Source of the DNA: Styela clava
Lineage: Eukaryota
Direction: 5' to 3'
Assembly (NCBI RefSeq): GCF_964204865.1
Contig: NC_135253.1
Coordinates: 9,362,001-9,426,000 of the forward strand
Length of the DNA: 64,000 bases
The stretch's first letter is position 1. Every line of letters begins with the position of its first letter. The position numbers are program-made. Shown in pieces: positions 42,001 through 54,000 of this stretch.

Positions 42001-45000
42001 ATTAAAAAAACGCCGATGGTGGAGGAATGACGAAACTCTATCTTTTATGTCGTATTTATAATATTTTTACACATAGAATACTTCCAATATTCACATATTT
42101 ATTGTAATTGCTTGTTAGAAGTTGAATAAGATGAGTACATGATGCATGAGTACAAGATTCATTGTTATGGTACTTTTAAACTGTGTACTAAGTAGCTCTA
42201 TATTTTTTTTCATTTATTTTTTATTGAGGTTTTTATAAAATGAAACAATATTGCAATAAACAATATTCATAAAAACAATAACAGTAATTCATCATAATAA
42301 ACATATATTGCATTTTTACTCTGATTATATTACAAGAATTCTCTATTTTTTGCTATGTTTGACAATTTATTCTTTTTTCAATGCTAATTCTCTCTCGTTC
42401 TCTCGGAAGCTCTATATTTCACTCAAACTTGTCTATTTTTACGAATGTTGTGCCACCAGGCGACAGTGATATGCCATGGCGTCGGACTAGTCCGATGAAG
42501 GCAGTACAGTATTCGGCTGCTGTGTCCATATATTTGTCTGCTCTCTTGTTCTTGAACACGAAATGGGCATATGGATCGTTTTGTTATTCTTTTTGGTCTT
42601 TTTTTCTTGTTGTTACTGTATAAAAAAGCCCTTTTTATTAAGCAACTACTGATCCAATTGCTTCGAAATTCATTTCAGTAGTAAACGATTGTATTTTTCG
42701 CTAGAAAGCTATTACTTTCATTTATATCAAAACGTGAAAATCGGATGCTTTTTGATGGTACGGGTAATGTAAAAAAGGTAAAGTGGACTACTACTATACT
42801 TTGTTTTTCGTGTCCATATATTTGAGCATCGCTTTCCAAATCATGGGTTGTAGGACTCTTTAATGTTTTCACTAGCACTCGTGGAATTGAGTGATTGTGT
42901 CATATCCAACAGGATTTCTTTCCGTCTTTGTTTTACAGAGAAGGATCAGCACTTGCAACTGTTTTGTAATTTATTTTAATAAGCATTTGTATTAAATATA
43001 TTTAAAACAGAAAATGAGAAACAATAACATTCCATGCATTTACCATCACTTAATAAAATCTTCGTCATTCAATATGGAACTTAATGTATGTTGTATGTTT
43101 TCACTAGCACTCGTGGAATTGAGTGATTGTGTCATATCCAACATGATTTCTTTCCGTCTTTGTTTTACAGAGAAGGATCAGCACTTGCAACTGTTTTGTA
43201 ATTTATTTCAATAAGCATTTGTATTAAATATATTTAAAACAGAAAATGAGAAACAATAACATTCCATGCATTTACCATCACTTAATAAAATCTTCGTCAT
43301 TCAATATGGAACTTAATGTATGTTGTACATCCTGCTTGTTTATTCAGAACTTCAAACAATTTAAGTTGTGTCAGCAATGTTACATTACCGATGTTACATT
43401 AGAGTCTGTTAGACAATTCATATAACCCGTAGCATCTGAAAGCGGATGGTGAACCGGGATACAAGTTAATATCTATAGAACTTATACGGGGCTCCCGAAG
43501 TATGCGAACCAAGATGGCGGACATCGGAACGTAACATGGGTACTAGGTTAGGGTTAGGCCATAATTTTAGGTATAAATACCACGGGAGGCTCTTGGCTAG
43601 TCTTCGAATTGATAATAGGACCCTAACCTGTTACCCATGTTACGTTCCGATGTCCGCCATCTTGGTTCGCATACTTCGGGAGCACCACTTATACTCTATT
43701 GCAAGGATGGCGAACCGCCGACTTTGTGACCCATAACGTTTTTCCAATTACCAACCAAGTCCCAAATTCATGGAGAAATAGTGACATTTCAGTGATGAAA
43801 GTTGGTAATAAAGCAGGCCTTTGTTCGATTTAACAATAAGATAACCTACTGTGGTATGGAACGCAGCTACTGACAACGATTCTTATGACATAACAGTTGT
43901 ATATGTTCCTTTTTCCCAACTTGTCTTGATACATCGCAGGTACATTTACCACAGGGGTAAAATGTTTTTGATTTTGTGGTTTACAAGAACTATATCCTAA
44001 TTTGCAGCTTATCCTTTATCCGTATACAATGACTTTTAAAAAACAACATTTCGTAGACTTAACGACTATAAAGATTTGAAATAATAATGGAGCAGGATAG
44101 TAGTGACCATAATAGGATCGAAGGTCGATCGAAAAAAATAATGCTCTCAGATTGGCATTCCCTTCTAAACTATTTTGAAACTTTGAAAAGATATGCCACT
44201 GTATTATAAACGCTTTTTGACAATTCATATGTATGCAAATCCAAGTTTTCGCACAAGAATTTTATAAAATTGAGTGCCAGAGATCGCACCAGTCCTGATA
44301 TTCCACATTTATTGGCGCACGGACGCCGATGCCGGCGTCATCACTAGAGGCATCATTCACGGTTGTAGATGATTGCAATCCCCGCACGAGTGTCTCCGCG
44401 TCGTCCTACGTGTTTATGTTAATTGAACGTATTCGGTAGATTGGTTGAGCATAAATAATGAGAATGATCATAGTATCGGGCACTGCCAGTAATGGATACT
44501 GCATTCAACTCGCTCCCCTGTTGCTGGCAAAGCGAGGTTTGGTGATTTATGACAAGCACAACTATAAACAGTACGGGGAGGTGGAAGCACATCAGAGTCT
44601 TTGTCGCCTATTTCGACCTCTTCCTCTCTTGTCTTCAAGTAAGCTACGTAACCGGTAGACGCGGAGCATGTAACTCCTGTCGTAACGTAACCCTGTAAAA
44701 AGTGGACGAGTTTTTTTTTAAGTGGCATAGATCAATGCAATGAACTGACTAACAAAACGAGCTGAATGGACGACAGAGTATTTAATAGGTTTTTGTAAGG
44801 TGCGAATAATGCGAATAATGCAAAAGCGAATAATGCACTGAAACGCAATATCGATTAACAATTTGCAAGACTGATTACTCATTCTTCTTCCAATGGTTTA
44901 GCGTCTATAATACGACCGTGTTGTAACAATAATGAAGATGAGATGCCCACGAGTTTATTAGTAGATTTATGCTTATTTGAAGAAGTCAGACTTTTGATCA

Positions 45001-51000: not shown

Positions 51001-54000
51001 AAAAATAAAACTGTAAACAATATAAGTTTTGAGGCCCGCGACAGTCTAAAAACGCTTTTCTAGGCATCGAAAATCGCAAAATTTCGTGTGCCAACGGCAC
51101 AAATTATGTTTGCTTGACCTTTAAAAATATTTCGTTACTAAAATCGAAACACGGTCAATTGTGAGCGGGATTTGCCTTTTTATCCATTACTTTAAAATTG
51201 ACGTCGAAAATTTTCGTGTTAACATTAAACAAAGCTGAGAACGCGACTTTTCCACGGTTTGTGATGATATATAAGATAATTAAAGTATATTCGATCACTT
51301 TTTGTATTTATTTATGTATTTTTATTGTACTGAAATAACTTTTACTACGTGAGAATTGACAGAAAATTTACGGATTTTTCGAAAGGTTTTTTCCGTCGTG
51401 TTTTAGAGTGGCCCTTGTTTTGTCGACTCAACCGCAGTTTAAATTGAAGACAATTAAATTAATAAATCAAGACATTTTGAATATGCCCGTTTCTGTCTTT
51501 GATTGATTACTTTGCACAAGTGAAAAATCATTTTTCGTTGATGAAGTCGGCTCTATTAACAAGTGGCGTAATCGCGGCGACTGTTCCGCGTGGATTTCGA
51601 GGCGGTGTATTTGTATTTTTGATTTACTAGTATACCTTATAATTATTTTCATTGTATGAATTAAAATTGTACTATATCGGATTTTATATCAGATATCGAG
51701 ATTTTTGTAACGACGATAACGAGTTCGGAAGATTGCAAAAATACGTATCAAAATTAAATACATCAGGCAGCTTATCTCATATTTTTATGTCCACATATCG
51801 CCGTGGTACTTTAAGTTTAGTAATATTTTTATTTTGACGTAAGAAGTCGCAACCGCGAGTTATGTTGCACACAATTTAATATATAAGGACATTTTAGAAT
51901 CTCGTGGCTGTCATGGATCGACAGAAAAATCATTATACGCTCAAATAGGCGGCTCTTTTATTGAGCGCGTAATCGCGGTGCTTGTTGCAGACGGCAGTGG
52001 GAAGTTCCGACTTTGACCCCGCCCTTTTTTTTTAAATCCTGGCTGCGCGCCTGAACTTGTGCCTGTTTATTTTCGTATTAAATTATAAATAAAAACCCTG
52101 CCAAGTCATTGCGTGAATCCTGAATGTTATTTCGAGTTCAAATGATGATTTAATAAATCGGCAATAATGGCAATTCTACTAGTCAAATGATAATTCCTTG
52201 GTAAAATTTAGGAAACAAATTCGCACAATAGCTTGTTACTTTGTTTTGCATTTCTAATTTCACGAAACGGCGTTAGTGCGCTTTATGCAGAACTAGGAAT
52301 TGAAACAATAACCTAATACGACTCCTCAAATTTGTTATTTTCTGTATATTAGCAAGAGCCGTGGGCTAATTCTCGCGGAATTCAAGAAATTGGTTCAGTG
52401 ACGCGCAAGTTTCGTGTCCGAGCAAAGCAGCCTAGGTAATCGATATATGAGTAGCAAACTGACATGCTAATACTTAGAGAATGACATCGACAGGTTATTG
52501 TTACGTGACGATACACGGCGCGGTGTTTTTCGGTAGGCGATCCAAGTTCGCCCCCCCAAAATTATGGAAAGTGTCCGCCCCTGCGTGACTCCCGCTATAG
52601 ACAGACGCACTGATTTGAAGCAGCGCATTATATCCATAACAGCATCAACAACTAAATAAGGGTAATCTTTACTATATTTTTGTATATGCATCGCAACTGT
52701 CAAAATTCATGATGATGGTTTCAAATATCCCATTTCGGGTGGTGCTCTTATTATATAGAGATTAAAAATGACCAAAATCGGTATACAATTGTGATTAAAT
52801 ACCTGCATCCGTTTACATATTTTTCTTCCTCGATTTCACTCATAATAAGAGCAATACATTTCTAAATTTACCATCTTCTTCGCGAATTCTATAAGTTTAA
52901 ATTAGAAGCTGACAATATAAAATACGATAATACAATGATACTTCAAAGCAATCAACACTATTGGTAAAAACTATTAACAACTGGCAGCAGAAGGCTGTAT
53001 ATAATTTGCCAGTAAGAGCAAGAATAGTAAAATATTTGAGTCAAACTAATATTGTCGATTTTGGCAGACCTATTGTTAGCGAGTATCGTGACCTTGCAAT
53101 TTGTGAACTGCTTTATAAATTTTGCGGTAAATGAAGCACTTTATATTAGCAGTTTCTGAGTACATTTAAAATTTTCAGACTTGTACAAATATTACTAACT
53201 ATTTTTCCATGCAAATATTGGAGTGCCTAACTGACGAGTAAAATTTCCCACGGCTTACAATCCAATCATCTCAACTATAAAACGCGATATAATGTTTAGA
53301 AACAATGCTACTAATACTGAAGACAACGAACACTATTACCTACAAATATAAAAACAAATTATTCTGTAGCCATATTGACTGCAAACTCAATCATACAATT
53401 ATGCACTAGATTTGTATACAAATAACATTTATCATAGTATTTTTGAATACTAATATATGTACAACTTAGTTCACCCGGTTTGTTTGTATCACTTTGTTTT
53501 AAAACAAACTGCCGCAAGGGAAAACTTTTTCGAACGTTAGGCTCCCTGGAGGCATAATTTACGTCTACCGACATTGCTACATCAAACTTAGGCAAGCGGA
53601 ACAATGACAAACATATCGTCATTTCTAAATACGGTCAAAGCGAACGAGCTTAGCACACAACCGAACACGCTTGCGAATGCGCGAAAACTTGTTATGACTA
53701 TCGAAGATGGAATTTCTAATTTCAATGTCGGCTTTAGAATAGAGTACGTTCCCATAAATTAGTCAGACTCGATAAAAGCCATGCGCGTGAAAATTAAATA
53801 CAAACGAACAATGCGAGATAAATTCAGTCTGTCTATCTCGATCATATCCAACGCCAATTTCTCACTGCGTACATCCAAAGTACTGTCAATTTGGCGGAGC
53901 TTTAATCCCATTCAGCTATTATTGTTTTCGAATGATTTGATTAGGAAGTGGAACCGCTTCTAAACCTTTTCGACTACGTAGTGTCTGTGGCCACCAAATT

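What the first reader, a model, noticed from the sequence alone, without database searches (positions are those of the whole stretch)
44468..52843. Hidden 9-exon type II receptor-like protein with an unrecognised 6-Cys C-terminal domain
Seen: nine phase-compatible exons give a 537-aa protein that the ORF track shows only in fragments. It has a ~320-aa disordered cytoplasmic N-terminus, one TM preceded by basic/Cys residues (KKPPIKCFRC), a glycosylated heptad-like stalk, and a compact domain NC-x-TC-x-YSCAC-x-ECSIHYWQCP. Knowledge: TM-stalk-terminal domain is the layout of trimeric class A scavenger receptors, type II C-type lectins and TNF/EDA ligands, but this domain lacks SRCR, CTLD, fibrinogen, C1q and TNF signatures. 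Inference: I recall a similar C-x-x-HYW-x-CP ending on uncharacterised cnidarian/sponge collagen-like proteins. This may be a collagen-less member of an unnamed invertebrate receptor family (innate immunity or adhesion).
Basis: partly seen in the sequence, partly recalled or inferred. Interest (0 to 1): 0.75.

Follow-up and report, generated by a model that had tools for sequence, protein, structure and literature searches.

The report
Sea-squirt receptor with unclassified head domain
A real nine-exon sea-squirt gene encodes a membrane-anchored, stalked protein whose small six-cysteine tip belongs to an undescribed domain family shared with echinoderms, an acorn worm and corals; it is probably a cell-surface receptor.

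Summary
On the minus strand, nine GT-AG, phase-compatible exons (52843 to 44468) sum to 1614 nt, or 537 codons plus stop. NCBI already holds an identical 537-aa model, "uncharacterized protein LOC120326671 [Styela clava]". The gene is therefore annotated, not hidden, and the window is ascidian, not human.

- about 320 residues of unstructured N-terminus;
- one TM helix with basic and Cys residues on its N side;
- a helical, heptad-patterned stalk;
- an all-beta C-terminal head of about 95 aa with six invariant Cys.

No Pfam, PDB-sequence or Foldseek match reaches significance.

Profile searches find a small family with the same head. Its named members come from crinoids, sea stars, Saccoglossus and two corals. 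These carry 5-27 collagen triplets just before the head, and the Styela clade has none. The recalled link to collagen-like proteins is therefore real.

Best reading: a probably trimeric type II surface receptor with a scavenger-receptor-like scaffold, a new head domain and tyrosine motifs (YEEL, NPxY) in its tail. The function is inferred, not shown.

The parts
52803..52843 (-). Exon 1: start codon and the first 13 codons plus 2 nt
   Evidence: The EEKY(V/I)NGC|R block runs without a break across the exon 1/2 junction in relative P0002.
49745..50169 (-). Exon 2: cytoplasmic, unstructured part (residues 14-156)
   Evidence: No Pfam hit. Relative's ORF fragment P0004 loses similarity at residue 155, the exon 2/3 junction.
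49074..49324 (-). Exon 3: cytoplasmic. Holds the basic block KKTKPKKPNRESLRRSR and the DYEEL motif (49125-49139).
   Evidence: The basic block is identical in P0001, P0002 and P0003. [DNHQ]YEE[LF] is present in 9 of 16 full-length members.
48441..48577 (-). Exon 4: cytoplasmic, poorly conserved linker
47403..47605 (-). Exon 5: NPMY motif (47584-47595), basic/Cys juxtamembrane KKPPIKCFRC, and the transmembrane helix (about 47422-47496)
   Evidence: NPxY precedes the TM in 11 of 16 members. AlphaFold2 predicts a TM helix in orthologue P0002 at residues 319-346 with pLDDT 88-94.
46492..46580 (-). Exon 6: membrane-proximal stalk, with one N-x-T sequon. Partly a Styela-specific insertion.
46094..46232 (-). 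Exon 7: helical, heptad-patterned stalk with two N-I-S sequons
   Evidence: The matching part of P0002 is a 45-residue helix with pLDDT about 95. Fragment P0010 loses similarity at residue 429, the exon 7/8 junction.
45277..45380 (-). Exon 8: first third of the head domain (Cys 1, strands 1-2)
44468..44692 (-). Exon 9: rest of the head domain (GYVTTGVTC, C-x-C, ECSIHYWQCP; Cys 2-6) and the stop codon

Best explanation
This is a genuine nine-exon gene of Styela clava (LOC120326671). It encodes a type II single-pass membrane protein. About 320 unstructured residues face the cytoplasm. They carry two conserved tyrosine motifs (H-D-Y-E-E-L-P, and basic-N-P-x-Y about 30 residues before the membrane) and two juxtamembrane cysteines. 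Outside the cell, a helical heptad stalk of about 90 residues with N-x-S/T sequons holds up a compact all-beta head of about 95 residues locked by six invariant cysteines.

The head defines a small, unnamed family found in ascidian-like sequences, echinoderms, a hemichordate and corals. In most relatives a short collagen triple-helix segment sits directly under the head.

Inferred mechanism: the chains assemble as trimers through the coiled coil, and through collagen in the relatives. This presents three heads that bind an extracellular ligand, and the tyrosine motifs couple binding to endocytosis and/or phosphotyrosine signalling. In other words, it works like a class A scavenger receptor or collectin-12-type receptor with a different, so far undescribed tip.

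Shown: the gene structure, the architecture, the family and the lack of any known domain. Inferred: trimer, cell-surface location, ligand binding, signalling.
For: Gene model:
- 8 of 8 introns are GT-AG and the sum is 1614 nt.
- identical to the NCBI 537-aa record.
- relative P0002 is contiguous across all 8 junctions, with a gap only next to exon 6.
- ORF fragments P0004 and P0010 stop matching exactly at two exon junctions.

Topology:
- One hydrophobic stretch, and K+R of 4 against 1 on its flanks.
- The N flank has more K+R in 12 of 16 members, is equal in 3 and has fewer in 1.
- Collagen repeats, sequons and the six Cys all lie C-terminal to the TM in relatives.

Structure:
- AlphaFold2 of whole P0002: residues 1-315 have pLDDT < 50 apart from a few short stretches and no secondary structure. 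The TM helix is 319-346, the stalk helix 362-406, and the head has six strands with pLDDT > 90.
- Head alone: pLDDT 87.1, pTM 0.74.
- Heptad pattern in the P0001 stalk: 23 windows against a shuffle mean of 3.6, with 5 of 300 shuffles reaching the observed count. At most 7 of 300 shuffles reach it in 12 of 16 members.

Family:
- 18 hits at E <= 1e-3 among 1.84 billion representatives.
- 12 hits with the head profile, 8 of them named: Styela, Anneissia, Antedon, Patiria, Asterias, Saccoglossus, Oculina and Montipora.
- Cys spacing 32-34 / 19-35 / 1 / 10-19 / 6 in 16 of 16 full-length members (P0023's first gap taken from its listed Cys positions).
- Longest G-x-y runs: 1-3 triplets in six Styela-like members, 5-8 in eight members, and 12 and 27 in the corals.
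- A 135-member cnidarian cluster, 55% with Collagen, matches the head by structure at TM 0.83.

Motifs: NPxY in 11 of 16 members and YEE[LF] in 9 of 16, aligned across phyla.

No known domain.
Against: - No expression, localisation, oligomer or ligand data exist for any member.
- Transcript support for Styela itself was not seen. It is inferred only from NCBI's model and from relatives' intron-free ORFs on short contigs.
- The structure models are of orthologue P0002, not of the window's protein. P0002 is 62% (exon 8) and 68% (exon 9) identical to the window's head. The models are monomers.
- Both tyrosine motifs are absent from both corals and from P0014, P0015 and P0008 by the pattern used, so signalling may be a deuterostome addition or not essential.
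- The cytoplasmic part (about 320 aa) is far longer than in class A scavenger receptors.
- The heptad signal is weak in P0002 (50 of 300 shuffles reach it) and absent in P0014.
Confidence: 0.6

Rival explanations
1. It is a membrane-anchored matrix or adhesion protein in the manner of transmembrane collagens (XIII/XXIII/XXV, XVII). The head and stalk would tie the cell to extracellular matrix rather than capture ligands for uptake or signalling.
For: Relatives carry collagen triplets between stalk and head. The type II, coiled-coil layout is shared with MACITs (PMC4678570, passages read). NPxY motifs also serve adhesion receptors (recalled knowledge).
Against: The Styela protein has no collagen: its longest G-x-y run is 1 triplet. 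Relatives have only 5-27 triplets, not a largely collagenous ectodomain. The juxtamembrane furin site that PMC4678570 describes as highly conserved in MACITs is missing: R-x-[KR]-R occurs in 0 of 16 stalks, and R-x-x-R in 2 of 16, both inside coral collagen repeats. The conserved part is the globular head.
Confidence: 0.2
2. It is the precursor of a shed, trimeric signalling ligand, like ectodysplasin and other TNF-family type II proteins.
For: Ectodysplasin also has a type II anchor, a short collagen run and a C-terminal globular domain (recalled knowledge).
Against: No TNF domain appears by Pfam. The head is about 95 aa with six Cys and does not match TNF or C1q folds in the PDB (0 matches at E <= 0.001). 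No furin-type site lies in the stalk. The long, motif-bearing cytoplasmic tail is conserved, which a mere pro-region would not need.
Confidence: 0.08
3. It is a membrane-tethered regulator. Its N-terminal part would be released by intramembrane proteolysis and act in the nucleus, as in CREB3/OASIS-type or teneurin-type proteins.
For: The basic block KKTKPKKPNRESLRRSR is identical in 3 of 3 styelid sequences. It gives a weak match to the bZIP basic region (PF00170, E 0.19, 12.3 bits against a cut-off of 27.6).
Against: The match is far below threshold. The bZIP_1 match stops within the basic region (profile positions 3-22 of 64) and by eye no leucine heptad follows the block. AlphaFold2 predicts no helix there. 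The block is not conserved outside the styelid clade.
Confidence: 0.04
4. The nine-exon model is an annotation artefact or a dead gene.
For: No transcript data for Styela clava were available to me.
Against: The model has an intact frame, canonical splice sites and a GC contrast between exons and introns. Relatives' ORFs are contiguous across the junctions. The head and the motifs are conserved from corals to ascidians.
Confidence: 0.02

Closest known systems
Class A scavenger receptors, especially collectin-12 / SCARA4 and SCARA3
   Same: Type II single-pass anchor, helical coiled-coil stalk, and (in the relatives) a collagen segment directly under a small C-terminal globular head. NCBI's automatic name for coral member P0023 is 'collectin-12-like'.
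   Different: The head is neither SRCR nor C-type lectin. The Styela protein has no collagen. The cytoplasmic part is about 320 aa with YEEL and NPxY motifs, whereas PMC5119243 (figure legend, read) describes scavenger receptors as having very short cytoplasmic tails. No sequence homology was detected.
[quoted passage not shown]
   Same: Type II orientation, with a coiled coil next to the membrane.
   Different: PMC4678570 (passages) describes MACITs as having a largely collagenous ectodomain, a conserved juxtamembrane furin site and a conserved C-terminal 34 residues. Here collagen is absent or short, there is no furin site, and the C-terminus is a six-Cys beta domain.
Ectodysplasin / TNF-family type II ligands
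   Same: Type II anchor, a short collagen run in some members, and a C-terminal domain likely to be trimeric (recalled knowledge).
   Different: No TNF homology domain, no furin site, and a long conserved tail.
Type II C-type lectin-like receptors with an N-terminal tyrosine (hemITAM-type) motif, such as Dectin-1 and CLEC-2
   Same: An acidic-Y-x-x-L motif in the N-terminal cytoplasmic tail of a type II receptor (the motif comparison is recalled knowledge, not a tool result).
   Different: No C-type lectin domain, a much longer tail, an added NPxY motif, and no sequence relationship found.
Trimeric fibre-tip or receptor-binding heads of phages and bacterial collagen-like proteins; H-type lectin domain
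   Same: A small all-beta head at the end of a trimeric fibre. There are weak structural resemblances. In BFVD the best E is 0.018 and TM is at most 0.50, and the hits include minor-tail and tail-fibre proteins and one 'H-type lectin domain'. Atlas clusters from bacteria and phage match at TM 0.51-0.70 by query.
   Different: None reaches significance: 0 matches at E <= 0.001 in PDB or BFVD. There is no Pfam H_lectin hit. This is a lead only.

Membership tests
Unnamed six-Cys 'HYWxCP' head family (defined here) | Six cysteines with spacing C-32..34-C-19..35-C-x-C-10..19-C-6-C at the extreme C-terminus | tested here: met
   P0001 has 33/35/1/16/6 with 3 residues after the last Cys. The pattern is present in 16 of 16 full-length members. 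Of 14 sequences, 13 have all six. The 104-aa fragment P0012 has five.
Unnamed six-Cys 'HYWxCP' head family (defined here) | Significant profile similarity of the head, plus the G-V-x-C and H-Y-W-x-C-P motifs | tested here: met
   The head profile scores P0001 at E 7e-30. Near-invariant columns are G54, C57, C89, C91, C108, W113 and C115. The pattern [HY][YS]W.CP matches in 12 of 14 sequences.
Unnamed six-Cys 'HYWxCP' head family (defined here) | Type II anchor plus helical stalk N-terminal to the head | tested here: met
Class A scavenger receptors | Collagenous G-x-y domain | tested here: not met
   The longest G-x-y run in P0001 is 1 triplet. Relatives have 5-27.
Class A scavenger receptors | C-terminal SRCR or C-type lectin domain (criteria as stated in PMC5119243, passage read) | tested here: not met
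   No Pfam family reaches its cut-off on 8 of 8 exon peptides, on P0002, or on 12 of 12 relatives.
Class A scavenger receptors | Type II orientation with a coiled-coil stalk; trimer | tested here: inconclusive
   Orientation and helix are supported. The oligomeric state cannot be tested with these tools.
MACIT transmembrane collagens | Largely collagenous ectodomain and a conserved juxtamembrane furin site (PMC4678570) | tested here: not met
   No collagen in P0001. R-x-[KR]-R occurs in 0 of 16 stalks. R-x-x-R occurs in 2 of 16, both within coral collagen repeats.
TNF / ectodysplasin ligands | TNF homology domain | tested here: not met
   No Pfam TNF hit. Foldseek against the PDB gives 0 matches at E <= 0.001.
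H-type lectins / phage receptor-binding heads | Fold-level match of the head | tested here: inconclusive
   Only weak matches: BFVD E >= 0.018 with TM <= 0.50, and Atlas bacterial or phage clusters at TM 0.51-0.70. No AlphaFold database library was available.

The most novel reading that the evidence does not exclude
The six-Cys head is a previously undescribed, pre-bilaterian ligand-binding fold that sits at the tip of trimeric collagen or coiled-coil stalks. It would be a third kind of tip beside SRCR and C-type lectin on scavenger-receptor-like scaffolds. On this reading, deuterostome invertebrates coupled it to a long tail with Src-SH2-type (YEEL) and PTB/endocytic (NPxY) motifs, making a distinct class of phagocytic or pattern-recognition receptor that vertebrates lost. 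Its fold may be distantly shared with phage and bacterial fibre tips.
Probability: 0.3. Interest if true: 0.65.

Novelty: new variant of a known kind. Interest (0 to 1): 0.5.

Why it matters
Class A scavenger receptors and collectins are defined by what sits on top of a coiled-coil/collagen stalk. Domain-driven surveys look for SRCR, CTLD or CD36 domains (for example PMC5119243, passages read) and cannot see a receptor whose tip is an unnamed domain.

This family offers the following:
- a confidently modelled domain (pLDDT 87) with no Pfam or PDB counterpart;
- a clear motif for finding more members;
- a natural series: long collagen in corals, short collagen in echinoderms and the hemichordate, and none in the ascidian clade. 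The series shows how such stalks are remodelled.

If the head binds microbial or matrix ligands, this would add a receptor class to invertebrate deuterostome immunity or adhesion. It would also give a tractable target in ascidians, the closest relatives of vertebrates.

Tried and rejected
Searches that found nothing significant:
- Pfam on 8 exon peptides, on P0002 and on 12 relatives. Nothing reached a cut-off. The hits were stalk coiled-coil noise and sub-threshold matches (bZIP_1 E 0.19; PHDvar_NSD E 0.012; Chordopox_A33R E 0.14; Collagen E 0.016 on P0018).
- PDB sequence searches with P0002, with exon 9 and with the head profile. Best E values were 0.67, none, and 0.19.
- ESM Atlas by features for the heads of P0002 and P0017: best scores 0.77 and 0.86, below the 0.9 lead level.
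- Foldseek against PDB and BFVD: 0 matches at E <= 0.001 in each. The resistin hit (rank 35, E 0.6, TM 0.20-0.24) was rejected as chance.
- Paper searches: 0 papers for 'collectin-12-like' plus coral. 0 papers for five LOC identifiers or HYWQCP. For 'Styela clava' plus 'scavenger receptor' the 8 titles listed of 9 papers looked unrelated and none was opened.

Hits and rows I dropped:
- P0013 (4060 aa, 20 stretches against the unstructured profile region, E 2.5e-6) was not fetched. I set it aside as a probable low-complexity match.
- Alignments A2 and A6 misplaced some short exon rows (exon 6, exon 2). Those rows were dropped for A3 and A7.

Idea rejected: the styelid ending C-P-(I/V)-L has a CaaX shape. 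The tail after the last Cys varies from 0 to 6 residues across the 16 members, and the end is extracellular.

- The source names of the unnamed hits could not be obtained (one search did not complete).
- No eukaryotic genome collection was available, so paralogues and intron conservation were not tested directly.
- The metagenome and viral contig collections and paper supplements were closed. Expression tables in supplements could bear on tissue expression.

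
Full report
**What is in the sequence.** The window has no N and about 31-40% GC. I listed every AG acceptor and GT donor with its codon offset. One chain of canonical sites links nine exons: 52843-52803, 50169-49745, 49324-49074, 48577-48441, 47605-47403, 46580-46492, 46232-46094, 45380-45277 and 44692-44468. 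All 8 of 8 introns begin GT and end AG. The exon lengths (41, 425, 251, 137, 203, 89, 139, 104, 225 nt) sum to 1614 nt, which is 537 codons plus the stop. Exon GC is 0.42 against 0.32-0.37 for the introns. I established phase compatibility by arithmetic.

The step of joining the exons and searching or folding the joined product was left out.

**Whose gene it is.** The exon 9 peptide alone (74 aa), searched against longer proteins, returned two hits among 20 candidates. P0001 is 100% identical, 537 aa, NCBI 'uncharacterized protein LOC120326671 [Styela clava]', on a 25.4-Mb contig. P0002 is 519 aa and 63% identical, from an unnamed source on a 2460-nt contig. The window is therefore ascidian, not human.

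Mapped back with tblastn, P0001 falls into 9 pieces at my exon bounds. P0002 hits 7 of the 9 exons in order, with E from 4e-22 to 0.004. In the alignment of P0001, P0002 and the partial P0003, the relatives read straight through every junction. For example, KNPRQRLNP and SALKGP are identical across the exon 4/5 and 7/8 junctions. The one gap lies next to exon 6.

Three short ORF fragments from unnamed sources (P0004, P0006, P0010) stop resembling P0001 at residues 155, about 357 and 429. The exon 2/3, 5/6 and 7/8 junctions fall at codons 156, 353 and 429. I read this as read-through into introns at shared positions, which is an inference. Transcript evidence for Styela itself was not available to me.

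**Architecture.**
- P0001 has a single hydrophobic stretch (best 19-residue Kyte-Doolittle mean 2.99, residues about 322-346) and no hydrophobic N-terminus.
- The 18 residues before the stretch hold 4 K/R, and the 18 after hold 1. Across 16 full-length family members the N flank is richer in 12, equal in 3 and poorer in 1. By the positive-inside rule (established knowledge) the N-terminus is cytoplasmic.
- In the relatives, collagen repeats, N-x-S/T sequons and the six-Cys domain all lie C-terminal to the TM, which agrees with this orientation.
- AlphaFold2 of the whole orthologue P0002 (22-row alignment A7, window exons as separate rows) gives pLDDT < 50 for nearly all of residues 1-315 (a few short stretches score higher) and no secondary structure there. 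It predicts a TM helix at 319-346 (pLDDT 88-94), a 45-residue stalk helix at 362-406 (about 95) and a six-stranded head (> 90).
- A crude heptad count finds 23 windows in the P0001 stalk against a shuffle mean of 3.6, with 5 of 300 shuffles reaching the observed count. At most 7 of 300 shuffles reach it in 12 of 16 members. The signal is weak in P0002 (50 of 300) and absent in P0014.
- Three sequons (NVT 364, NIS 394, NIS 423) lie in the stalk. Glycosylation itself is an inference.

**The head domain and its family.**
- Nothing in Pfam reaches its cut-off on the 8 exon peptides, on P0002 or on 12 relatives.
- PDB sequence searches give nothing.
- Word-based searching with P0002 found only the two other styelid-like sequences: 3 hits among 8000 scored candidates.
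- A profile of P0002, P0003 and six window exons as separate rows (A3) was run over 1.84 billion representatives. It gave 18 proteins at E <= 1e-3, 8 at <= 1e-10 and 3 at <= 1e-30. Ten are further full-length proteins of 321-523 aa with the same layout. Five are fragments. One (P0013) I set aside unfetched as a probable low-complexity match.
- A head-only profile (A4) then retrieved 12 proteins at E <= 1e-3 among 8000 scored candidates. [quoted passage not shown] The Montipora protein is auto-named 'collectin-12-like', and both coral proteins carry Pfam Collagen.
- In 16 of 16 full-length members the six cysteines keep the spacing 32-34 / 19-35 / 1 / 10-19 / 6, with 0-6 residues after the last one (P0023's first gap taken from its listed Cys positions).
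- The near-invariant columns are G54, C57, C89, C91, C108, W113 and C115.
- The longest G-x-y run is 1-3 triplets in the six Styela-like members. It is 5-8 in eight members, including all the echinoderms and Saccoglossus, and 12 and 27 in the corals. It always ends a few residues before Cys 1.

No sponge member was seen. The taxa of the unnamed hits remain unknown.

**Fold.** AlphaFold2 of the P0002 head (118 aa, 19-row alignment A5) gives mean pLDDT 87.1, pTM 0.74 and six long strands. Foldseek finds 0 matches at E <= 0.001 in the PDB (best query-normalised TM-score 0.39) and 0 in BFVD (best E 0.018, TM at most 0.50). The BFVD hits are mostly unnamed phage proteins, with several tail or tail-fibre proteins and one 'H-type lectin domain' among them. 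The ESM Atlas, by structure, matches the head of the Saccoglossus member at TM 0.83 to a 135-member eukaryotic cluster. That cluster is mostly Cnidaria, and 55% of its members carry Collagen. It also matches bacterial and phage clusters at 0.51-0.70. These are leads, not tests. No AlphaFold database library was available.

**Cytoplasmic tail.** Two motifs align across ascidian-like, echinoderm and hemichordate members. [DNHQ]-Y-E-E-[LF] is found in 9 of 16 members, and P0008 has E-Y-E-E-F at the aligned place. N-P-x-Y preceded by basic residues, 30-45 residues before the TM, is found in 11 of 16 members. Both are missing from the two corals and from P0014 and P0015. From recalled knowledge, Y-E-E-I/L is the preferred Src-family SH2 site and a Y-x-x-hydrophobic sorting signal, and NPxY is a PTB-binding and endocytic signal. 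Two cysteines next to the membrane (C318, C321) could be acylated, which is an inference.

The styelid-only basic block KKTKPKKPNRESLRRSR resembles a bZIP basic region only weakly (E 0.19). The match covers only profile positions 3-22 of 64, and neither a leucine heptad (by eye) nor a predicted helix follows.

**How it most likely works.** Collagen triple helices need three chains (established knowledge), and in most relatives a collagen run sits directly under the head. I therefore infer that the family assembles as trimers, with the Styela clade relying on the coiled coil alone. The conserved, disulfide-locked head at the far end of the stalk is the natural ligand-binding part. The conserved tyrosine motifs suggest uptake and/or phosphotyrosine signalling. 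This is how class A scavenger receptors and collectin-12 work.

Membership of that class fails on its defining features. The Styela protein has no collagen, no SRCR or CTLD, and a very long tail (criteria from PMC5119243, passages read). MACIT collagens and ectodysplasin-type ligands fail too. There is no furin-type site in any stalk: R-x-[KR]-R occurs in 0 of 16, and R-x-x-R in 2 of 16, both inside coral collagen (MACIT features from PMC4678570, passages read). There is also no TNF domain.

**Novelty.** Paper searches found 0 papers for the five LOC identifiers or the HYWQCP string and 0 for 'collectin-12-like' with coral. Of the 9 papers holding Styela clava and scavenger receptor, the 8 listed titles looked unrelated and I opened none. 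Supplements were closed, so expression tables may mention these genes. Within these limits the head domain and the family are undescribed, while the scaffold is of a known kind. Hence 'new variant of a known kind'.

**Surroundings.** The nearest recognisable neighbour is a rhodopsin-type GPCR gene on the plus strand (17.6-37.3 kb). I found no tRNA or Rfam match. A MITE-like element lies about 770 nt 3' of the stop, with a tandem 232-nt duplication further 3' of it. Of 69 other open frames of at least 75 aa in the window, only the three GPCR frames hit a Pfam family at E <= 0.001.

Noticed in passing
window 17662-17952, 23283-23651, 36509-37264 (+): Three open frames hit Pfam 7tm_1 (E 1.4e-6, 6.4e-13, 3.2e-7), covering successive parts of the profile. 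This is a multi-exon rhodopsin-family GPCR gene upstream of the finding.
   Followed up: partly
window 7743-7997 and 43472-43699: Two copies (91-93% alike) of a short element built of inverted arms of about 80 nt (86-89% complementary, 65-74 nt apart), MITE-like. The second copy lies about 770 nt 3' of the gene's stop codon.
   Followed up: no
window 42863-43326: Tandem duplication of a 232-nt unit, with copies 99% identical.
   Followed up: no
proteins P0004, P0006, P0010 against window exon junctions 2/3, 5/6 and 7/8: ORF fragments from unnamed sources lose similarity to the Styela protein at residues 155, about 357 and 429, that is at or near exon junctions. This suggests introns at the same places in a relative.
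   Followed up: partly
window 44471-44482 (last four codons, C-P-I-L): The styelid proteins end in a CaaX-shaped C-P-(I/V)-L. Other members have tails of 0-6 residues after the last Cys, and the end is extracellular, so I took this as coincidence.
   Followed up: yes
window 49179-49229 (exon 3, basic block): KKTKPKKPNRESLRRSR is identical in the three styelid sequences and weakly resembles a bZIP basic region (E 0.19). It is not conserved in the wider family, and its role is unexplained.
   Followed up: partly
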